The notes beneath the pieces are model-generated. The model saw nothing but the letters and a program-made list of their open reading frames with translations, did not search any database and was not told the DNA's origin. DNA of 51,046 bases from a virus: UHGV virus genome UHGV-1266211, one strand, 5' to 3'. The first letter of the stretch is position 1. Each line of letters opens with the position of its first letter. Below are positions 19,566 to 29,101 of the stretch, piece after piece. The position numbers and the translations under genes were made by a program.

Positions 19566-19699
19566 AGCCAGAAACGCTTGAGATACTCCGCGCGCGCTGG
19601 CAGCGCCTTCGCATTTATCGCTACCGGGGATCGGTGCTGGTGGATTATCGCATTCTTCGTAATTTTGTTCGTATCTATCATTCAGCAGGAGCAGCCTAA
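19562..19699 (+). CDS. Small protein (YlcG position)
   Basis: 45 aa between rusA and Q, as ylcG in DLP12. Confidence 0.35.
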   Translation: MKPETLEILRARWQRLRIYRYRGSVLVDYRILRNFVRIYHSAGAA

Positions 19700-20514
19700 T
19701 GAACCTCGAAAACACCGTGAAATATCACTTCGCCAAGTCGACGCTTATTAGCGACTCTCCGCGCGCCACTGGTTCAGATTCGCTGACCGGGACGGATGTC
19801 ATGGCGGCCATGGGCATGACCCAGGAACGTGCCGCCATGGGATACAGTGCCTTCCTCGGCAAGATGGGCATCAGTTACAACGATCGGGAGAGGGCGATTG
19901 AGTTGCTGTCTGAGTACGCGTTAACCAAATGCGATAAGGTTGCCGCGCTGCGCAAGCTGGACGATGCGGTTAAGCCACTGGTGATGCACCAGTTGGCCAC
20001 CTTCGCTTTTGAAGATTACTCCCGCAGCGCTGCGAGCGTTAAGCAGTGTGATTGTTGCAGCGGGCAGGGATTTATTGAGGCCGACGTGTTCACAATGAAA
20101 TCTCATTATTCAATGAGGATTCCTCAATGGGCGAAAGAGCTTGGTCAGTCACCGAGTGATTTCGAGGTTAAACGACAGGTTCGAGAGGTGGTTCGAGTGC
20201 TGTGCTCGAACTGCAAGGGGAAGAAGGTTGTCAGTTGTGCCTGCAATGATTGCCGGGGACGTGGGAAAGCCGTAGACCAGAAGGAAACGAAGAAACAGGG
20301 TGTGCCGGTTATGACTGACTGCAAGCGCTGCGGCGGGCGTGGATATGAACGCATTCCTTCAACTGAGGCCCACGCAGCTGTTTGCCAGATTACGGATGTA
20401 ATCAGCCTGGATACGTGGAAGAAGTCCGTTAAACCGTTCTATGATCAGCTGATTACGAAATTCGATATTGAAGAGGCATGGGCAGAAAACCAACTGAAAC
20501 AAATAACACGATAA
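19699..20514 (+). CDS. Late antiterminator Q-like protein
   Basis: 271 aa, multiple CxxC pairs (CDCCSG, CSNCKG, CACNDCRG, CKRCGGRG), directly upstream of the lysis genes. Confidence 0.75.
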   Translation: MNLENTVKYHFAKSTLISDSPRATGSDSLTGTDVMAAMGMTQERAAMGYSAFLGKMGISYNDRERAIELLSEYALTKCDKVAALRKLDDAVKPLVMHQLATFAFEDYSRSAASVKQCDCCSGQGFIEADVFTMKSHYSMRIPQWAKELGQSPSDFEVKRQVREVVRVLCSNCKGKKVVSCACNDCRGRGKAVDQKETKKQGVPVMTDCKRCGGRGYERIPSTEAHAAVCQITDVISLDTWKKSVKPFYDQLITKFDIEEAWAENQLKQITR

Positions 20515-20599
20515 CGGCTATGGAAGTTAATTCCAGCTATTTACTTTTCCCGAATCTGTGTTAATTTTATCCCAACGATGGGTTAATGCCTTCGTTTCA

Positions 20600-20632
20600 A
20601 GCCCCGCGGATAACACCGTGGGGCTTTTGCGT
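20600..20632 (+). terminator. tR'-like terminator of the short late leader
   Basis: agccccgcgg-ataaca-ccgtggggct plus T4. Confidence 0.5.
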
Positions 20633-20880
20633 TTCTGGAGGGTAAGAAAATGCACGGGTAGAACGGACAGACCGCAGTCGAAAGGCACTGCAGCAGTCAT
20701 GATGCTGCCCCGAGTCGCGTAATGGCGAGCCTGTGTAGTGATGGGTAAGGGTTCATAGATCAAAATAAGCTCCGGTAAAGCAGCGTGAATGCCAGATACG
20801 CACCGGTTATCAGCGGCGATGACGCGACAGCACCTCAAGGGCATGAGCGTGGCCACTCCGGGAAGTGGCAAAGAATTTAT

Positions 20881-20905
20881 AGCCTCGCTTATGCGGGGCT
20901 TTTCT
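20881..20905 (+). terminator. Terminator hairpin (copy 1 of a recurring motif)
   Basis: agcctcgc-ttat-gcggggct plus T4. Confidence 0.5.
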
Positions 20906-21018
20906 ATTTCAGGCCTCACGGGAATCATCCGCTACGTGCTTTGTTGATAAATCCAGCCCGTGAAGCCTGACCCTTTTCATACACACACAGCGCCATCCGA
21001 AGAATCGGAGGTGAGGCT

Positions 21019-21297
21019 ATGACCAGAATGAGCACCATTTACAGCAGACTTTCATATGGAACAGGCACCACGCTGACCGGCTGCGGTGTATCAGCGAAGG
21101 CATATGCCGAAACAGCAAAAACAGCAAAAGAGGTGTCCTGGATGTTGGCCGACAGAATTGCAGGGTTAAGCCTGAGCGACTGGGCAATTATTGTCGGTAT
21201 CGCATGCACGGTAATCACCTGTGCAGTGAACTGGTATTTCCGCTGGAAAGAACGGGAGGATCGGCGCAATGGCTATGTCTCTAAAGCTGAAGAATAA
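21019..21297 (+). CDS. Holin (S21/pinholin-like), dual-start motif
   Basis: Met1-Thr-Arg-Met4 dual start; TM segment; C-terminal ...YFRWKEREDRR like S21 ...YFKIREDRRK. Confidence 0.75.
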   Translation: MTRMSTIYSRLSYGTGTTLTGCGVSAKAYAETAKTAKEVSWMLADRIAGLSLSDWAIIVGIACTVITCAVNWYFRWKEREDRRNGYVSKAEE

Positions 21298-21817
21298 ATT
21301 GAGCGCAGCGGTCGTTGGTTTGATTCTTGCCGGGGCTTCCGCACCCGTGATTCTCGATCAGTTTCTGGATGAGAAAGAGGGTAACAGCTTGACAGCATAT
21401 CGCGACGGCGGCGGACTCTGGACCATTTGCCGTGGTGCAACAATGGTTGATGGCAAGCCAGTAGTACAGGGCATGAAGCTGTCAGCTGAGAAATGCGCCC
21501 AGGTAAACGCCATTGAACGCGACAAGGCGCTGGCGTGGGTTGACCGAAATATCAAAGTACCACTGACCGAACCACAGAAGGTGGGTATTGCATCCTTCTG
21601 CCCGTATAACATCGGCCCCGGTAAATGCTTCCCATCGACCTTCTATAAGCGCATCAACGCAGGTGACCGCATCGGTGCATGCGAGGCAATCCGCTGGTGG
21701 ATTAAAGACGGTGGCCGTGATTGCCGTCTAACCAAAGGCCAGAAGAATGGCTGCTATGGTCAGGTTGAGCGACGGGACCAGGAAAGCGCGCTGGCGTGCT
21801 GGGGGTTAGACCAATGA
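21269..21817 (+). CDS. SAR endolysin (phage lysozyme with N-terminal signal-anchor-release domain)
   Basis: Gly/Ala-rich weak TM N-terminus then collinear similarity to P21 R (...W.KD...GC.....W...GG). Confidence 0.85.
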
Positions 21818-22362
21818 TCAGCGAGTCTGTTAAGACCTGGTGGAAAGCCGCCACGGTTTCAGCGCTTCTCATTGCCTCATTCGCCGCAGGTAGTGTGTGG
21901 ACGGAACGAGCATGGGAAAAGAAATGGGCAGATCGTAATAGTGAGGAGTCCTCTCAGGCAGAGAACGCTCAAACGGTTGCCCGTATGATTGAACAAGGGC
22001 GTGTAATTGCTCGCGATGAGGCTGTTAAAAATGCACAAGAACAGGCTGCAAAAGCAGCTGCGAATGCTGCTGGTCTGTCTGCCACTGTTAGCCAGCTGCG
22101 CACCGAAGCAACAAAACTTGCCATCCACCTGGATGCCGCAAAGCACACCGCAGATCTTGCCGCTACCGTCCGAAGCAAAACAACCGACACCAACGCAGGA
22201 TTGCTTGCCGACATGCTCGGAGATATTGCAGCAGAAGCTAAACGATATGCTGGAATCGCTGACGAACGCTACCGGGCAGGAATGACGTGTGAGCGCGTTT
22301 ACGACTCGGTGAGAGAGTCAAATAACGGGATCTGGCAAAAAGCGGGGACGAATCCCCGCTAG
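21814..22362 (+). CDS. Rz-like i-spanin
   Basis: N-terminal TM, Ala/Gln-rich coiled-coil; ATGA overlap with the endolysin. Confidence 0.7.
22064..22285 (+). CDS. Rz1-like o-spanin lipoprotein embedded in Rz (+1 frame)
   Basis: [12 protein letters not shown] lipobox, Pro-rich. Confidence 0.6.
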
Positions 22363-22365
22363 CTG

Positions 22366-22581
22366 TTAGCCAACTTTGCGATAAGGGTAGCCAGCTTTTT
22401 TGATGTGGGCATCAAAATACTGGCCTTTTGACGACGCATTCATTAGTGCCGTGTACACGGTAGATGGAACCCGAGAGTATTGATAAATGCCACTGCTATG
22501 GAATGCAATTTCCAGCGTCGAAGTGGCCTGGTCATAACCTACTGATTGGAGATTTGAAGATGAAACAGGTTGACGAATCAA
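22366..22581 (-). CDS. KTSC-domain protein
   Basis: ...SSNLQSVGYDQATSTLEIAFHSSGIYQYSRVP..VYTALMNASSKGQYF... Confidence 0.6.
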   Translation of the reverse strand: MIRQPVSSSNLQSVGYDQATSTLEIAFHSSGIYQYSRVPSTVYTALMNASSKGQYFDAHIKKAGYPYRKVG

Positions 22582-22724
22582 AGCAGTTTCCTCGTTTGAA
22601 TGGGAAGAGTCCCGAGGAAATCGTAGAGCTATTCAAAAGTTATAACTTTGTCGATGATCATGGTCATCGACTGGATATGTGCCAGGACTTCAAAGATTTG
22701 GTTGAGCTTGCAAGCGATGCCTGA
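22560..22724 (+). CDS. Hypothetical small protein
   Basis: 54 aa from internal Met; followed by a terminator. Confidence 0.3.
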   Translation: MKQVDESKQFPRLNGKSPEEIVELFKSYNFVDDHGHRLDMCQDFKDLVELASDA

Positions 22725-22751
22725 TGGCGTTACCGAAGCAGAAAGAAAGCT

Positions 22752-22776
22752 AGCCTCGCATTAGCGGGGCTTTTTT
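22752..22776 (+). terminator. Terminator hairpin (copy 2 of recurring motif)
   Basis: agcctcgc-atta-gcggggc plus T6. Confidence 0.55.
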
Positions 22777-22803
22777 ACGACCAGAAGAAGCAGGAGAAGA
22801 AGT

Positions 22804-23004
22804 ATGTTAACAGTAAAAGTAATGTCGCCTGGTGGCGGCGAAGAGATTCATTGCGGTCTGAGTGTTGGCTTTAACCCTGACCAGCAGAGTATTGCTGTCT
22901 CGGGCATGGACCAGAACGTGTTTCTGAAACCCGGCGAGGTTGCTTATGTGATGAATGCTAACGGTAAGACCATTTCCCGTTACGAATGCCCCGCGCAGTT
23001 ATGA
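22804..23004 (+). CDS. Hypothetical small protein
   Basis: 66-aa ORF with GGAGAAGAAG RBS. Confidence 0.4.
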   Translation: MLTVKVMSPGGGEEIHCGLSVGFNPDQQSIAVSGMDQNVFLKPGEVAYVMNANGKTISRYECPAQL

Positions 23005-23064
23005 GCATTACAGAAGCCATTCCGAAGAGTGGCTTCGATAATGTGGCGTTAATATTACTGATTC

Positions 23065-23238
23065 TCAGTAGTCCGACTTAGCGAGAGAGGTTCCGCTGAA
23101 AAAACCTGATTTCCGTTCATCTTTTACGAACCATTCGCAATAGTACTGATCACGTTCATCATCAAAGTAGCTTACGGTCATCAGGGGGCCACCGGACTTC
23201 AATTGGACAACGGTTCCATCTTCCAATTTTTCAGACAT
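23065..23238 (-). CDS. DUF2158-like small protein
   Basis: 57 aa MSEKLEDGTVVQLKSGGPLMTVSYF...CEWF; GGAGGA RBS; not in ORF track. Confidence 0.5.
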   Translation of the reverse strand: MSEKLEDGTVVQLKSGGPLMTVSYFDDERDQYYCEWFVKDERKSGFFSGTSLAKSDY

Positions 23239-23364
23239 TTAATCCTCCATATCAAAAAAGAAATTGATCGTTTTAACTTGTAGATAGGGATGCCATGACG
23301 CTAGCGCCCTATTGATTTGCCTAACCAATATGTACTGACAACCTTATAAAGGCTAGAGATATTT

Positions 23365-24015
23365 ATGGCAAAAACGGCTTCGAGTGATCTTCCGCAACGC
23401 CCACTTCCACCAGTTAATTTCATTGGCCCCGATAACTGGCAGCCCTACACCAGATTAATCCCCGCCAATGAAGCGCATGAGTGGATAAGCCGACAAATCC
23501 TCAGCGATAGCGGAAGCATACATAATCCTGACCACGCCCATTTAATTGAAGCTGATTTGTGTTTTATGTGGGCTTCAGAATCGTTCGCGAAGAAAGGTCG
23601 CTATGTTCTCGGTCAGGCCGAGCAGGTAATGCTCCGCGCAGGTGGTTGGCAGAAAGCCAGAATGGAACAGCAGATGTATGAATGGTTTGGGCGCATCCCG
23701 AAGTTCATCATCACGTTGGCCTCCGATTATTGTTCACAATGCAGCGACCTCGAGTTCTGCGCACTGGTAGAGCATGAGCTTTACCACATTGCCCAGGCCA
23801 CCGATGAGTTTGGCGCTCCGAAGTTCAACAAAGAGACCGGGCAACCGGTACTGACATTGCGCGGCCACGACGTCGAAGAATTTGTCGGTGTTGTGCGTAG
23901 ATACGGGGCGAGCACTGAAGTGCAAGAACTGGTGGACGCAGCCAATCAACCTGCAGAGGTGGCAAAACTTAACATCGCCAGAGCGTGCGGGACGTGCATG
24001 CTGAGACTGGCGTGA
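23365..24015 (+). CDS. Putative Zn-metallopeptidase-like protein (HExxH)
   Basis: 216 aa with VEHELYHIAQ motif. Confidence 0.45.
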   Translation: MAKTASSDLPQRPLPPVNFIGPDNWQPYTRLIPANEAHEWISRQILSDSGSIHNPDHAHLIEADLCFMWASESFAKKGRYVLGQAEQVMLRAGGWQKARMEQQMYEWFGRIPKFIITLASDYCSQCSDLEFCALVEHELYHIAQATDEFGAPKFNKETGQPVLTLRGHDVEEFVGVVRRYGASTEVQELVDAANQPAEVAKLNIARACGTCMLRLA

Positions 24016-24046
24016 ATTTTTGACTGATTATGACAGGCGGTAAGCG

Positions 24047-24535
24047 ATGGCTGCATTAAAGGGAGAGGTGAAAGCGTTTATCGTTCAATCGCTTGCATGC
24101 TTCGACACGCCGTCGCAAGTGGTCGATGCCGTCAAAAAAGAATTTGGCATCACGATCCCCCGTCAGCAGGTTGAATCTCACGACCCGACGAAAGCAAACG
24201 GCAAAGGTCTGGCGAAAAAATGGGTCGAGATGTTCAACGAAACCCGCGAGCGCTTCCAGACGGAAATTGCAGAAATCCCGATCGCTAATAAGGCTTATCG
24301 GCTTCGCGTACTGCAACGAATGTCTGTGACCGCAGAGAACATGAAAAACCTCGGCATGACAGCTCAGCTTCTCGAACAGGCAGCAAAAGAAGTTGGGGAT
24401 GTCTACACCAACAAACAGAAGGTTGAGCAAAGCGTTGTTGCCACCCATAACGTTATGCCGGTCCCGTCCTGCGATAACGTCGACGACTGGGAAGCAGCAG
24501 CACAGAAACAGCAGAGCGAGGTTCTTGGTGGATGA
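24047..24535 (+). CDS. Putative terminase small subunit
   Basis: 162 aa, directly upstream of and overlapping the large terminase start. Confidence 0.5.
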   Translation: MAALKGEVKAFIVQSLACFDTPSQVVDAVKKEFGITIPRQQVESHDPTKANGKGLAKKWVEMFNETRERFQTEIAEIPIANKAYRLRVLQRMSVTAENMKNLGMTAQLLEQAAKEVGDVYTNKQKVEQSVVATHNVMPVPSCDNVDDWEAAAQKQQSEVLGG

Positions 24536-26103
24536 ATTACAAAGCCGTCTGGAAACCTTTGCCGGGATCGCAATCGCTCTCCCTGAGTTGCCCGTGTAAC
24601 GAAATCCTCTACGAAGGTACGCGAGGCCCCGGTAAAACCGCCGCGCAACTGGCGCGCTTTCGTCGCCTGGTTGGTCTGGGCTATGGCTCGTTCTGGCGTG
24701 GCGTCATTTTCGATACCGAGTATAAAAACCTCACCGACATCATTACCCAGTCAAAGCGTATGTATCGCCTGTTTAATGACGGTGCACGCTATCTGGCGTC
24801 AGCATCTGAATTGCGCTGGGTATGGCCGACTGGCGAAGAGTTGCTGTTCCGCTTTGGGAAGGAAGAGGGGGATTACTGGGATTACCACGGTCAGGAGTTC
24901 CCGTTCATCGGCTTTAACGAGCTGACAAAGCAGCAGTCTGCTGAGTTCTACGAAATGATGTTCTCCTGCCGGCGCTCATCGTTCCGGCCGGAGAACTACC
25001 CGCTGGCTAACGGCGGTCTGTTGAAGCCAATCCCGCTCGAAACATTCAGCACGACCAACCCATTCGGCATCGGCCACACCTGGGTGAAGAAACGCTTCAT
25101 CGAGCCAGCGCCCCGCGGCACCATCATTCGTGAAACGCAGCAGGTGTTTAACCCGCAAACTGAGCGCGAAGAGGATGTGACGCTGACGCGCGTGGCTATT
25201 CACGGCTCGTTCAAAGAGAACCCGTATCTGGATCCCCAGTACATCGCAACGCTGATGGCCATCAAAGACCCGAACCGCCGCAAAGCTTGGGTAGAGGGCT
25301 CCTGGGATGTCACCAGCGGTGGGCGCTTTGACCACCTGTGGAATGCATCGCTGCACGTCATTAAGCCGTTCCGCATCCCGGATAGCTGGACGGTTGACCG
25401 TTCCCATGACTGGGGTGAGTCGAAGCCGTTCTCTAACCTCTGGTGGGCGCGAGCCGACGGTACTGCCGCAGAACTGCCTGATGGTCGCCAGTTCTGCCCG
25501 CCTGCCGGGTCGCTGATCCTGATTGGCGAGTGGTATGGCTGTCCACCTGACGAGCTGAACAAAGGGCTCAATATGAGCTCGACAAACGTCGCCAAGGGTG
25601 TGGCCTGGATTGATAAGCGGCTGATGGGCGAAGAGCTGCCTGAACCTGAAGAGATAAAACTCAATGGGATAACTCAGGGGCAACTGAACATCATGCCCGG
25701 TATCTGCAAAAAGGTTGTGCCCGGACCTGCTGACGGGGCTATCTACAACACCGGTGATGACGAATTATCTATTGCCCAGAAAATGGAATCCCAGGGCGTT
25801 AAATGGGTGCCATCCAACAAGAAGCCGGGTTCACGCGTGAACGGCGCGGCACTGTTTGCTGACATGCTGGAGGCCGTCATTGAGGGCAAGAAGCTGGAAT
25901 CAGGTATGCCAGAGAAACCAGCATTCTACGTGTTTGACTACTGCCGGGGCTGGATTAGCCGTGTTCCGGTTCTCGTTCGCGACAGTAAGAACCCTGACGA
26001 TGTAGACACACAGCAGGAAGATCACGATTGGGATGGCACGCGCTATGCCGTCCTACATTCACCGCCGAAGAAAGTCGGCAAAGTCACCAGCCTGAGGCTC
26101 TAA
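24532..26103 (+). CDS. Terminase large subunit
   Basis: Walker-A-like EGTRGPGKT near N-terminus; size and position. Confidence 0.75.
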   Translation: MNYKAVWKPLPGSQSLSLSCPCNEILYEGTRGPGKTAAQLARFRRLVGLGYGSFWRGVIFDTEYKNLTDIITQSKRMYRLFNDGARYLASASELRWVWPTGEELLFRFGKEEGDYWDYHGQEFPFIGFNELTKQQSAEFYEMMFSCRRSSFRPENYPLANGGLLKPIPLETFSTTNPFGIGHTWVKKRFIEPAPRGTIIRETQQVFNPQTEREEDVTLTRVAIHGSFKENPYLDPQYIATLMAIKDPNRRKAWVEGSWDVTSGGRFDHLWNASLHVIKPFRIPDSWTVDRSHDWGESKPFSNLWWARADGTAAELPDGRQFCPPAGSLILIGEWYGCPPDELNKGLNMSSTNVAKGVAWIDKRLMGEELPEPEEIKLNGITQGQLNIMPGICKKVVPGPADGAIYNTGDDELSIAQKMESQGVKWVPSNKKPGSRVNGAALFADMLEAVIEGKKLESGMPEKPAFYVFDYCRGWISRVPVLVRDSKNPDDVDTQQEDHDWDGTRYAVLHSPPKKVGKVTSLRL

Positions 26104-28636: not shown

Positions 28637-29101
28637 ATGACTCAACATATTGGCGTGAAGCTCATCAATGCTTACCCGATGACCCGTCTGGCATATAACG
28701 ACTTTCGTGGTTGGGAGTTACCAAGTGACGAAAACGGAAGTGATGAAGGTTATCTCGTCGAGTATCTGGATGGCGGAAAGCCAAATACCGATCGCTTCAA
28801 CGGGTATGTGAGCTGGAGTCCGAAAGATGTGTTCGACAAAGCCTACCGACCAGTGGCGGGGCTTAGCTTCGGACTGGCTGTCGAAGCCCTGAAATCAGGC
28901 AAGCGTGTCACCCGCGCAGGCTGGAACGGCAAGGGCCTGTGGCTTGAGCTGGTCCAGCAGTCGCCATCTGTGGACCTGCCGTACATTCGTTTAATTTATC
29001 CGGTGCCGGGCAATGGTGCTATGCCATACCCAAATGGCGCTCGCGTGCCTTGGGCACCAAGCCAAACCGACGTCTTGGCTGATGACTGGCAAATTCTCTA
29101 A
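28637..29101 (+). CDS. DUF2829-like protein (Tad2-like candidate)
   Basis: ...GLSFGLAVEALKSGKRVTRAGWNGKGLWLEL... resembles the DUF2829 core motif. Confidence 0.5.
   Translation: MTQHIGVKLINAYPMTRLAYNDFRGWELPSDENGSDEGYLVEYLDGGKPNTDRFNGYVSWSPKDVFDKAYRPVAGLSFGLAVEALKSGKRVTRAGWNGKGLWLELVQQSPSVDLPYIRLIYPVPGNGAMPYPNGARVPWAPSQTDVLADDWQIL

What the first reader, a model, noticed from the sequence alone, without database searches (positions are those of the whole stretch)
22366..24015. Moron cluster between lysis cassette and terminase: KTSC protein, DUF2158 protein and HExxH protein on mixed strands
Between Rz and the small terminase are five short genes on both strands (KTSC-domain protein and DUF2158-like protein on the minus strand; a 216-aa HExxH protein on the plus strand), with an internal terminator. 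The mixed orientation and AT-richness indicate independently acquired cargo rather than phage core functions; none has an obvious role.
Basis: partly seen in the sequence, partly recalled or inferred. Interest (0 to 1): 0.45.

Follow-up and report, generated by a model that had tools for sequence, protein, structure and literature searches.

The report
Accessory gene slot plus terminase-linked metallopeptidase
Between the lysis and DNA-packaging genes of this E. coli prophage lie three small swappable accessory gene cassettes of unknown role, but the largest gene, a zinc-protease-like protein, is not cargo: in 173 of the 174 phage and prophage stretches examined it sits directly in front of one type of small terminase gene.

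Summary
Five genes lie at the stated coordinates on mixed strands: KTSC (-), a 54-aa ORF (+), a 66-aa ORF (+), DUF2158/YodC-like (-) and a 216-aa HExxH protein (+). There is an intrinsic terminator at 22752-22777.

The "moron cluster" interpretation holds for only part of the interval.

- **Accessory cassettes (22327-23400).** This stretch is a mosaic of three independently exchanged cassettes: A (KTSC/ORF55), B (ORF66) and C (DUF2158). A and C have lower GC. A has a terminator on each strand. Each cassette is absent from near-identical relatives.
- **Promoters.** No convincing promoter was found for any of the small genes.
- **ORF66.** It is conserved in about 250 phage records, mostly virulent T5-like phages, so it is unlikely to be a lysogen-only gene.
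- **The HExxH protein (Pfam PF18894).** It has the GC content of the late genes. In 173 of 174 loci it lies immediately upstream of a DUF2280-type small terminase, across Enterobacterales, Pseudomonas, Acinetobacter, Vibrio, Burkholderia and Rhizobium phages, whatever the large terminase or portal type. Its confident model has a zincin core most like minigluzincins and SprT/Wss1.
- **Best reading.** It is the first gene of the packaging module, a probably latent zinc peptidase that acts with or near the small terminase. Its substrate is unknown.

The finding is ordinary as a moron slot. The protease-terminase pairing is modestly interesting because it is testable and I found no description of it.

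The parts
21796..22362 (+). Rz-like spanin (DUF2514). This is the last gene of the lysis cassette and the left border of the slot (context).
   Evidence: PF10721, E 1.6e-43; phrog_312 Rz-like spanin. Homology with phage Fraca ends at 22326, so the last ~36 nt belong to cassette A.
22333..22359 (-). Intrinsic terminator on the minus strand, immediately after the KTSC stop codon. It lies inside the 3' end of Rz.
   Evidence: Stem GCGGGGA/TCCCCGC, loop TTCG, then TTTTT. RNAfold gives -19.2 kcal/mol for 22320-22372 on the minus strand. The consensus scan missed it.
22366..22581 (-). KTSC-domain protein, 71 aa, TTG start, pI 9.6. Part of cassette A.
   Evidence: PF13619, E 4.6e-25. Full-length matches to solved KTSC proteins 7x8c (E 8e-17) and 4rgi, and to the C-terminus of Paenibacillus HerA 8wiv. 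Found in 44 phage records from very diverse hosts.
22560..22724 (+). ORF55, 54 aa, acidic (pI 4.7). It is divergent from KTSC and overlaps its 5' end by 22 nt. Part of cassette A.
   Evidence: phrog_18255, E 2e-36. The exact protein is on 613 contigs. The KTSC/ORF55 pair is kept in the same divergent, overlapping layout in Providencia phage PSTNGR2lys, again between the lysis and terminase genes.
22752..22777 (+). Intrinsic terminator downstream of ORF55 and upstream of ORF66.
   Evidence: 8-bp stem with 6 GC pairs, then TTTTTT. A 27-nt stretch is 85% identical to the terminator at 20880-20906, downstream of the Q-like gene.
22804..23004 (+). ORF66, 66 aa, a small all-beta protein. Cassette B.
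23005..23044 (.). Long hairpin without a U-run, between the convergent ORF66 and DUF2158 genes.
   Evidence: RNAfold gives -25.0 kcal/mol on the plus strand and -19.0 on the minus strand. It travels with ORF66 in L075 and L077.
23065..23238 (-). DUF2158/YodC-family protein, 57 aa, acidic. Cassette C.
   Evidence: PF09926, E 1.2e-11. Only 4 phage records hold a homologue. In 5426 complete E. coli genomes the cassette DNA matches only 4 loci annotated as YodC-family genes, at 76% identity over about 90 nt. Cassette limits 22986-23400 come from comparison with H5.
23239..23364 (.). AT-rich spacer (35.7% GC) between the divergent DUF2158 and metallopeptidase genes.
   Evidence: Only weak promoter-like matches: CTGACA-17-GATATT ending 1 nt before the ATG at 23365, and TTGATA-18-AAAAAT overlapping the DUF2158 start.
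23365..24015 (+). PF18894 zinc-metallopeptidase-like protein (MP), 216 aa. It is the first gene of the packaging module. Codons 1-12 belong to cassette C.
24047..24535 (+). DUF2280 protein, the presumed small terminase. It is the constant partner of MP (context).
   Evidence: PF10045, E 1.8e-52. It overlaps the large terminase start (ATGA). Its C-terminus matches phrog_5334 'terminase small subunit' (E 3.4e-7) and the annotated small terminase of phage HK639 (52% over residues 98-162).
24532..26103 (+). Large terminase subunit (context).
   Evidence: Annotated 'terminase' in the 97-99% identical H5 prophage. Pfam terminase hits are weak and below threshold.

Best explanation
The interval holds two different things.

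**1. An accessory-gene slot, about 22327-23400.** It lies in the late operon of a lambdoid E. coli prophage, between the spanin gene and the packaging genes, and holds three cassettes that are exchanged independently by recombination.

- Cassette A: a divergent, 5'-overlapping pair, KTSC (a small basic protein with a predicted nucleic-acid-binding domain) and ORF55 (acidic). Each gene is followed by its own intrinsic terminator.
- Cassette B: ORF66, a small beta-sandwich protein. It is also conserved in virulent T5-like phages, so it most likely acts during lytic growth.
- Cassette C: a YodC/DUF2158-like small protein on the minus strand. Its recombination joints lie inside the 3' end of ORF66 and inside codon 12 of the next gene.

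None of the three is needed for the phage core, because near-identical prophages lack each one. The Q-modified late transcript must read through all of them, including the terminator at 22752, to reach the terminase, head and tail genes (inferred). Whether the minus-strand genes are expressed in the lysogen, as lambda bor is, is not shown.

**2. The 216-aa HExxH gene (23365-24015).** This is not cargo. It is the first gene of the packaging module and the constant upstream partner of DUF2280-type small terminase genes.

- Shown: it has a zincin core resembling the minigluzincin and SprT/Wss1 folds, with HExxH, H168 and C208 invariant, C211 in at least 90% of sequences, and an H57/H59 pair that is nearly invariant.
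- Inferred: it is a zinc endopeptidase, probably latent (a cysteine switch or a second His2Cys2 site), made late in infection. It acts on or with the small terminase or DNA-bound proteins at the start of packaging. The substrate is unknown.
For: **Slot and cassettes**

- The mosaic breakpoints against relatives fall at 22326/22327, about 22739, 22985/23043 and 23400.
- Prophage H5/H6 is 97-98% identical on both sides but has a different gene in place of DUF2158. EC09 lacks cassette A.
- 198 ORF clusters occur upstream of MP in 74 loci.
- GC is 46.5%, 48.4% and 42.9% for cassettes A, B and C, against 52.7-55% in the flanks.
- Terminators are present on both strands.
- The KTSC/ORF55 pair is conserved as a unit, in the same slot, in a Providencia phage that has a different terminase.
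- ORF66 occurs in 253 phage records, mostly T5-like, where it sits in the tRNA-rich region.

**Metallopeptidase**

- 173 of 174 loci with MP have DUF2280 directly downstream on the same strand, with a median gap of 38 nt (some contigs were fetched twice).
- Annotated examples are Pseudomonas JBD44, Acinetobacter Acba_3, Vibrio PP270, Rhizobium RHph_N28_2 and Pectobacterium ZF40.
- Genus counts of MP and DUF2280 in the phage database match almost one to one: Acinetobacter 62/62, Pseudomonas 44/44, Vibrio 8/8, Burkholderia 7/7.
- The pair persists with different large terminase and portal families.
- MP has the GC content of the late genes.
- The candidate metal ligands are conserved across 151 sequences.
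- A subset of homologues carries an N-terminal helix-turn-helix domain and is still followed by DUF2280, a large terminase gene and a portal gene.
- Wss1 and Spartan are described as minigluzincin-like, latent, cysteine-switch proteases activated by DNA (PMC4559962).
Against: - No convincing sigma-70 promoter was found for any small gene. Independent transcription is therefore unproven.
- DUF2158 has no canonical terminator.
- 181 Salinibacter phage records have DUF2280 but gave no MP match at E<=1e-5. In the one record inspected, the upstream gene encodes a membrane protein. DUF2280 terminases can therefore work without MP.
- One Azospirillum locus has MP followed by a DUF5681 protein instead of DUF2280.
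- MP is acidic (pI 5.5), unlike typical DNA-binding proteases.
- Nothing here shows protease activity, a substrate, or an interaction with the terminase.
- Synteny could instead reflect a cis-acting site or shared regulation.
Confidence: 0.72

Rival explanations
1. One reading: all five genes, including the HExxH protein, are independently acquired morons. They would be cargo expressed from the repressed prophage, with no role in the lytic core.
For: - Mixed strands, an internal terminator and lower GC across the small-gene part.
- A Burkholderia phage paper also lists the PF18894 gene among 'accessory genes' of unknown role (PMC12860723).
Against: - MP has the GC content of the late genes (52.8%).
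- MP is linked to DUF2280 in 173 of 174 loci, across several bacterial classes.
- It keeps 44-87% protein identity from Acinetobacter to Salmonella phages.
- ORF66 is conserved in virulent T5-like phages.
- No promoters were found.
Confidence: 0.08
2. MP is linked to the small terminase gene for a cis or regulatory reason only. For example, the pac site or the late-operon start might lie in or next to it. Its protein function would then be unrelated to packaging, for instance a late-expressed protease that destroys a host defence or housekeeping protein.
For: - MP stays with the N-terminal, presumed DNA-recognition part of DUF2280, while the C-terminus and the large terminase vary.
- MP subtype and DUF2280 subtype recombine freely: MP at 88-89% identity pairs with DUF2280 at either 64% or 77%.
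- Salinibacter DUF2280 phages lack MP.
Against: - No patch of unusually conserved third-codon positions was found in MP or in the spacer across 78 distinct sequences. The dips coincide with Met-, Trp- and His-rich stretches.
- No PADLOC family matched meaningfully.
- A function unrelated to packaging would not be expected to keep this exact position in such different genomes (lambdoid, JBD44-like, Acinetobacter, Rhizobium).
Confidence: 0.2
3. The KTSC/ORF55 divergent pair is a two-component conflict module. It could be a toxin-antitoxin pair, or an inhibitor or decoy of a HerA-type defence, rather than a passive moron.
For: - The pair is conserved as a unit, with overlapping 5' ends, across genera.
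- One partner is basic (pI 9.6) and the other acidic (pI 4.7).
- The KTSC domain is also the C-terminus of the HerA subunit of the SIR2-HerA defence system (8wiv, E 5.6e-12).
- KTSC genes are reported next to HerA-like ATPases (PMC9503650).
Against: - No PADLOC hit.
- No known toxin or antitoxin domain.
- KTSC occurs alone in most of the 44 phage records.
- The idea rests on domain sharing only.
Confidence: 0.12
4. MP is a head or virion maturation protease that merely happens to be encoded before the terminase genes.
For: - The head module has a P22-type coat protein, a Mu-F-like protein and a DUF6651 protein, with no recognisable prohead protease.
- Phage morphogenesis often uses proteases.
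Against: - MP and DUF2280 co-occur with different large terminase, portal and head gene sets, so MP does not track any capsid type.
- P22-type heads assemble without a protease (established knowledge).
Confidence: 0.06

Closest known systems
Lambdoid morons in the Rz-to-terminase slot (for example lambda bor, on the opposite strand just downstream of Rz; moron concept of Hendrix and colleagues). From my own knowledge, not tested here.
   Same: - Same genomic slot.
- Small genes present or absent between otherwise near-identical phages.
- Some lie on the strand opposite to the late operon.
- They have lower GC and, for cassette A, their own terminators.
   Different: - No promoter was identified and expression in the lysogen is unknown.
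- None of the products resembles bor, lom or any known conversion factor.
- ORF66 also belongs to virulent T5-like phages.
Minigluzincins (projannalysin, proabylysin, selecase) and the SprT/Wss1 (Spartan) DNA-protein-crosslink proteases
   Same: - A small zincin core with HExxH on a helix and a downstream His.
- MP has an invariant Cys near the C-terminus. Wss1 is described as latent with a cysteine switch (PMC4559962).
   Different: - No sequence-level relationship: no PDB hit with the family profile and no significant Foldseek hit.
- Only about 90 of 216 residues align.
- MP has an extra N-terminal region with a conserved DHxH motif and is acidic.
- It is encoded by phages next to a terminase gene, with no SHP, VIM or ubiquitin-related modules.
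HNH endonuclease-terminase pairs of HK97-like phages: an accessory enzyme encoded next to the terminase and needed for packaging. From my own knowledge.
   Same: A small metal-dependent enzyme gene is kept immediately beside the terminase genes in many unrelated phage genomes. Some Acinetobacter phages have an endonuclease gene directly upstream of MP as well.
   Different: MP has a peptidase fold, not a nuclease fold. No functional link to packaging has been demonstrated. DUF2280 terminases exist without it (Salinibacter phages).
KTSC domain (PF13619): standalone proteins 7x8c and 4rgi, and the C-terminal domain of HerA in the SIR2-HerA defence system
   Same: Full-length sequence match (E 8e-17 and 9e-14). 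The same domain occupies residues 628-689 of HerA 8wiv.
   Different: Here it is a standalone 71-aa protein in a prophage, paired with a 54-aa acidic ORF. No ATPase or SIR2 partner lies nearby.
YodC (DUF2158), a small chromosomal protein of enterobacteria listed among sigma-S-controlled small proteins in Salmonella (PMC5437024)
   Same: Pfam DUF2158 match. There is about 76% DNA identity over about 90 nt to E. coli loci annotated as YodC-family genes.
   Different: Here the gene is phage-borne, on the antisense strand of the late operon. Phage copies are rare, with only 4 records.

Membership tests
Moron (independent accessory transcription unit in a prophage operon) | Inserted between genes that are adjacent, or differently separated, in closely related phages | tested here: met
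   Cassettes A, B and C are each absent from near-identical relatives. For the HExxH gene the feature is not met: it is present in every relative.
Moron (independent accessory transcription unit in a prophage operon) | Own promoter | tested here: inconclusive
   The consensus scan found two promoter-like sites against 4.2 expected by chance, and neither is well placed. A relaxed scan gave at best 8 of 12 matches upstream of KTSC, ORF55 or DUF2158.
Moron (independent accessory transcription unit in a prophage operon) | Own terminator | tested here: met
   KTSC has a minus-strand hairpin plus TTTTT at 22333-22359. ORF55 has 22752-22777. ORF66 and DUF2158 share only a hairpin without a U-run.
Moron (independent accessory transcription unit in a prophage operon) | Base composition different from the surrounding phage genes | tested here: met
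   GC is 46.5% for A and 42.9% for C, against 52.7-55% in the flanks. It is 48.4% for B and 52.8% for the HExxH gene, which is not different from its neighbours.
Moron (independent accessory transcription unit in a prophage operon) | Expressed from the repressed prophage | not testable with these tools
   This needs RNA-seq or 5' end mapping in the lysogen.
PF18894 PhageMetallopep | Score above the Pfam gathering threshold, with the HExxH motif conserved | tested here: met
   147.9 bits against a cut-off of 23.7. H137, E138 and H141 are invariant in 74 homologues.
Zincin metallopeptidases of the minigluzincin / SprT-Wss1 type | Zincin catalytic fold with HExxH and a third zinc ligand | tested here: inconclusive
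Zincin metallopeptidases of the minigluzincin / SprT-Wss1 type | Latency (C-terminal tail or cysteine switch) and activation by DNA | not testable with these tools
   C208 is invariant and C211 is mostly conserved. Their distance to the zinc site could not be measured.
Small terminase subunit (for the DUF2280 neighbour) | Encoded directly upstream of, or overlapping, the large terminase gene, with a C-terminal region related to known small terminases | tested here: met
   Overlap at 24532-24535. phrog_5334 'terminase small subunit', E 3.4e-7, on residues 110-159. 52% identity to the annotated small terminase of HK639 over residues 98-162. DNA binding and ring assembly were not tested.
KTSC domain PF13619 | Pfam score above threshold and full-length match to solved KTSC proteins | tested here: met
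   87.6 bits against a cut-off of 25. 7x8c, E 8e-17.
DUF2158 / YodC PF09926 | Pfam score above threshold | tested here: met
   44.6 bits against a cut-off of 22.3.
Known anti-phage defence systems (PADLOC) | Match to any PADLOC protein model | tested here: not met
   None of the four small proteins matched. MP gave one meaningless weak hit (E 0.006 to a GlgB model).

The most novel reading that the evidence does not exclude
The PF18894 protein is a dedicated partner of DUF2280-type small terminases. It would be a latent SprT/Wss1-like zinc protease, unlocked at the packaging initiation complex, that either processes the small terminase or strips proteins from the DNA about to be packaged. This would be a proteolytic step in phage DNA packaging that I know of no precedent for.
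Probability: 0.2. Interest if true: 0.7.

Novelty: new member of a known kind. Interest (0 to 1): 0.38.

Why it matters
**As a moron slot, this is ordinary.** Lambdoid phages are known to collect small accessory genes between the lysis and packaging genes.

**Two points are still useful.**

- *Annotation.* PHROGs and many GenBank records label the PF18894 gene "transposase". One paper treats it as an accessory gene. The data here show that it is a constant member of one type of packaging module, in temperate phages of several important pathogens (Pseudomonas aeruginosa, Acinetobacter baumannii, Klebsiella, Vibrio, Burkholderia).
- *A testable question.* A conserved protease-like gene beside the small terminase raises the question of what a peptidase does at the start of DNA packaging. 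Model phages with genetics are available to answer it, for example JBD44 and ZF40.

The small genes (KTSC/ORF55, and ORF66 shared with T5-like phages) are candidates for host-interaction or anti-defence functions. Nothing here proves such a role.

Tried and rejected
- **PADLOC scan of the five proteins:** nothing meaningful.
- **NCBIfam scan:** nothing.
- **Rfam scan of 20400-24200 at E<=1:** nothing.
- **Profile search of PDB sequences with the MP alignment:** no hit.
- **Foldseek of the MP model against the PDB:** no significant hit.
- **afdb50 fold library:** not available.
- **Search for a cis element (pac-like) in MP and DUF2280.** I measured third-codon entropy over 78 distinct sequences. 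The only dips coincide with Met-, Trp- and His-rich stretches, so there is no evidence for one.
- **Promoter search with strict and relaxed consensus:** no convincing site for any small gene.
- **Scans of genome contigs with alignments A1-A3:** A single distant query returned one Azospirillum locus.
- **Natural MP-DUF2280 fusion P0015:** it reads through the stop codon and spacer, and it is a single case. I treated it as a probable sequencing or mutational artefact, not as evidence.
- **A correction to my own reading.** I first took to mean that about 40% of E. coli genomes carry the MP-terminase unit. This was wrong, because those matches were mostly to Rz. With MP alone the figure is 52 of 5426 genomes.
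Full report
**What is there**

The window is a lambdoid prophage with its late genes on the plus strand. In order these are:

- a Q-type antiterminator gene (19699-20514);
- a promoter/terminator region;
- a holin gene (21019-21297);
- a lysozyme gene (21269-21817);
- a DUF2514 Rz-like spanin gene (21796-22362);
- the interval in question;
- a DUF2280 gene (24047-24535) that overlaps the large terminase gene (24532-26103);
- a DUF4055 portal gene, a Mu-F-like protein gene and a P22-type coat gene.

An identical 3.6-kb stretch occurs in E. coli assembly GCA_014663975.1 and in a metagenome contig.

| Gene | Coordinates (strand) | Best match |
|---|---|---|
| KTSC | 22366-22581 (-) | PF13619, E 4.6e-25 |
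| ORF55 | 22560-22724 (+) | phrog_18255 |
| ORF66 | 22804-23004 (+) | phrog_3909 |
| DUF2158 | 23065-23238 (-) | PF09926, E 1.2e-11 |
| HExxH protein | 23365-24015 (+) | PF18894, E 2.3e-43 |

The internal terminator at 22752-22777 is a strong hairpin followed by a T-run. I found two further hairpins:

- a minus-strand intrinsic terminator directly after the KTSC stop codon (22333-22359, inside the last codons of Rz);
- a long hairpin without a U-run between the convergent ORF66 and DUF2158 genes (23005-23044).

**The small genes are a mosaic of three cassettes**

I compared 21000-24600 with the related loci I had fetched.

- The prophage of E. coli H5/H6 is 98% identical up to 22985 and 97% identical from 23401 onwards. 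In between it carries a 123-aa plus-strand gene instead of DUF2158.
- Strain EC09 has ORF66 but lacks KTSC and ORF55.
- Locus L016 has KTSC and ORF55 but lacks ORF66 and DUF2158.
- Phage Fraca shares ORF66 and its upstream terminator, but its Rz homology stops at 22326.

This defines three cassettes:

- A, about 22327-22739 (KTSC and ORF55);
- B, about 22740-22985 or 23043 (the terminator and ORF66);
- C, 22986-23400 (DUF2158).

The joints of cassette C lie inside coding sequence. Cassette C supplies the last six codons of ORF66 and the first twelve codons of the HExxH gene. Both regions are variable in the respective protein alignments.

GC content is 46.5% for A, 48.4% for B and 42.9% for C. 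The spacer at 23239-23364 has 35.7%. The flanking late genes have 52.7-55%.

Among 74 relatives, the 1.8 kb upstream of the HExxH gene contains 198 different ORF clusters (raw ORFs, so some are spurious). This slot is therefore hypervariable.

**What the small genes are**

*KTSC*

- It matches solved standalone KTSC proteins over its full length (7x8c, 4rgi).
- It also matches the C-terminal domain of the HerA subunit of the Paenibacillus SIR2-HerA defence system (8wiv, residues 628-689, E 5.6e-12).
- The Aravind group describes KTSC as a nucleic-acid-binding domain and notes KTSC genes next to HerA-like ATPases (PMC9503650, PMC7824862).
- It occurs sporadically, in 44 phage records from very diverse hosts.

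*The KTSC/ORF55 pair*

- Together with ORF55 it forms a divergent pair with overlapping 5' ends.
- The same layout is kept in Providencia phage PSTNGR2lys, again between the lysis and terminase genes. That phage has neither the HExxH gene nor DUF2280.
- One partner is basic (pI 9.6) and the other acidic (pI 4.7).

*ORF66*

- It is very well conserved, with 23 of 66 positions invariant.
- Its model is confident (pLDDT 95.3) and shows a six-stranded beta protein. No significant structural relative was found.
- Its family is present in 253 phage records, most of them virulent T5-like phages of Klebsiella, Salmonella and Escherichia. There it sits among the tRNA genes.
- A gene kept by phages that never lysogenise is unlikely to be a lysogen-only conversion gene.

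*DUF2158*

- It belongs to the YodC family. Chromosomal YodC is listed among sigma-S-controlled small proteins in Salmonella (PMC5437024).
- Phage copies are rare, with 4 records.
- The cassette DNA is essentially absent from 5426 complete E. coli genomes.

*Scans that found nothing*

- PADLOC and NCBIfam matched none of the four small proteins.
- Rfam found nothing in the region.
- No convincing sigma-70 promoter was found for any of them. Transcription independent of the late operon, the essential point of the moron idea, therefore remains open.

**The HExxH protein is not cargo**

*Composition and distribution*

- Its GC content (52.8%) matches the late genes.
- A tblastn search found it in 144 phage records: Acinetobacter 62, Pseudomonas 44, Klebsiella 8, Vibrio 8, Burkholderia 7, plus Salmonella, Pectobacterium, Cronobacter, Rhizobium and others. 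Protein identity is 44-87%.
- It is often the last gene of a linear record. That is what one expects when authors start the record at the small terminase gene.

*Synteny*

- In annotated phages the order is always metallopeptidase, DUF2280, large terminase, portal. Examples are Pseudomonas JBD44 (gp16-gp20), Acinetobacter Acba_3, Vibrio PP270, Rhizobium RHph_N28_2 and Pectobacterium ZF40.
- I built HMMs for both proteins and scanned all 176 loci then held. Of 174 loci with the metallopeptidase, 173 have DUF2280 directly downstream on the same strand, with a median gap of 38 nt. Some contigs were fetched in two scans, so the number of independent loci is somewhat lower.
- The one exception is an Azospirillum chromosome, which has a DUF5681 protein in that position.
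- Genus counts for DUF2280 in the phage database mirror those of the metallopeptidase almost exactly.
- The pair persists while the large terminase and portal change family. Only about 10 of 86 loci have the window's large terminase type, and locus L090 has a Terminase_6N gene and a Phage_portal gene.
- Only the first ~129 residues of DUF2280 are conserved with the pair.

*Limits of the link*

- 181 Salinibacter phage records have DUF2280 but gave no metallopeptidase match. In the one record inspected, the upstream gene encodes a membrane protein with no similarity to the metallopeptidase.
- The metallopeptidase is rare in E. coli, at 52 of 5426 complete genomes. My earlier reading as about 40% was wrong, because those matches were mostly to Rz.

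**What kind of protein it is**

- *Conserved residues.* In an alignment of 74 diverse homologues, H137, E138, H141, H168, G181, C208 and G209 are invariant. H57, H59, D169 and E171 are nearly so. Over 151 sequences the pattern H57 H59 H137 E138 H141 H168 D169 E171 C208 C211 is complete in 90. HExxH plus H168 is kept in every sequence that covers those positions.
- *Distance from solved structures.* Foldseek and a profile search of PDB sequences find nothing significant. The core is a minimal zincin and the rest has no solved relative.
- *A possible latency mechanism.* Wss1 and Spartan have been described as minigluzincin-like, latent proteases with a cysteine switch that DNA binding releases (PMC4559962). 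The invariant C208 suggests comparable latency. Alternatively, C208 and C211 could form a second His2Cys2 metal site with H57 and H59. I could not inspect the model coordinates, so both are inferences.
- *The "transposase" label.* A subset of homologues (257-327 aa) carries an N-terminal helix-turn-helix with weak HTH_Tnp_1 and HTH_28 matches. This probably explains the widespread label "transposase" (phrog_513 and several GenBank records). These variants too are followed by DUF2280, a large terminase gene and a portal gene.
- *Charge.* The protein is acidic (pI 5.5), which argues against direct DNA binding by the common form.

**How it most likely works**

Shown:

- the slot is mosaic, and the cassettes are dispensable for the phage core;
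- terminators flank cassette A;
- the metallopeptidase is a conserved partner of DUF2280 and has an intact zincin site.

Inferred:

- late transcription from the Q-modified polymerase reads through the cassettes, including the terminator at 22752, because the terminase, head and tail genes lie downstream on the same strand and I found no other promoter;
- the minus-strand genes may be expressed in the lysogen, as lambda bor is in the same position (own knowledge);
- the metallopeptidase is made with the late genes and acts with, or close to, the small terminase.

I rate the composite explanation at 0.72. I rate the specific mechanism, a protease acting at packaging initiation, at about 0.2.

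The main rival, at about 0.2, is that the linkage is cis-acting or regulatory and that the protease targets a host protein. A scan for unusually conserved third-codon positions across 78 sequences found no candidate cis element, but this is weak negative evidence.

**Comparison with what is known, and novelty**

- The slot behaves like the classical moron slot of lambdoid phages.
- The individual families (KTSC, DUF2158, PF18894, DUF2280) are all catalogued, and all lack a demonstrated function in phages.
- In the searchable literature PF18894 is mentioned once, as an accessory gene of unknown role, and DUF2280 once, in a gene table. I found no description of their pairing.
- The finding as submitted is therefore a new member of a known kind.
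- The pairing of a zincin with a small terminase is a modest new observation with an inexpensive experimental test.

**Limits**

- There are no expression data, no coordinates for the models and no interaction prediction.
- The locus sets are biased towards relatives of the queries.
- Some contigs were counted twice in the 174.

Noticed in passing
window 28637-29101 (+): A 154-aa gene lies between the Mu-F-like minor head protein gene and the DUF6651 gene. It matches Pfam PF11195 'Tad2-like, Thoeris anti-defense 2-like domain' (E 4.6e-20). RefSeq calls the homologue DUF2829. This looks like an anti-defence-type gene embedded in the head module.
   Followed up: no
window 20880-20906 and 22751-22777: The terminator after ORF55 is an 85% identical 27-nt copy of a terminator in the region downstream of the Q-like antiterminator gene. 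A second terminator lies at 20599-20626. The roughly 400-nt stretch 20627-21018, between these terminators and the holin gene, has no assigned gene.
   Followed up: no
window 22333-22359 (-): The minus-strand terminator of KTSC lies inside the last codons of the Rz gene, and homology with phage Fraca's Rz ends at 22326. The cassette therefore seems to have replaced the C-terminal ~12 codons of the spanin.
   Followed up: partly
window 22804-23004; L178 2501-2695: The ORF66 family is shared between temperate lambdoid prophages and virulent T5-like phages (Demerecviridae). In the T5-like phages it sits among the tRNA genes. The confident beta-sandwich model has no significant PDB relative.
   Followed up: partly
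PDB 8wiv chain A, residues 628-689, versus window 22366-22581: The HerA subunit of the Paenibacillus SIR2-HerA anti-phage system ends in a KTSC domain that aligns with the phage KTSC protein (E 5.6e-12). A standalone phage copy could in principle interfere with such systems. This was not tested.
   Followed up: no
L093 (Salinibacter phage 4_20) 2932-3980: 181 Salinibacter phage records carry a DUF2280 gene upstream of the presumed large terminase and gave no metallopeptidase match. In the one record inspected, the upstream gene encodes a 172-aa multi-pass membrane protein.
   Followed up: partly
P0015 (374 aa, metagenome): One database protein reads through from the metallopeptidase into DUF2280 across the translated spacer. 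It is probably a stop-codon mutation or a sequencing error, but it is a natural fusion that could be used in experiments.
   Followed up: partly
phrog_513 and GenBank records (e.g. JBD44 gp16, ZF40 gp39, ENT47670, VBM1): The PF18894 protein is widely annotated as 'transposase'. This probably comes from a weak HTH_Tnp_1-like N-terminal extension in some homologues. The label appears to be wrong.
   Followed up: partly
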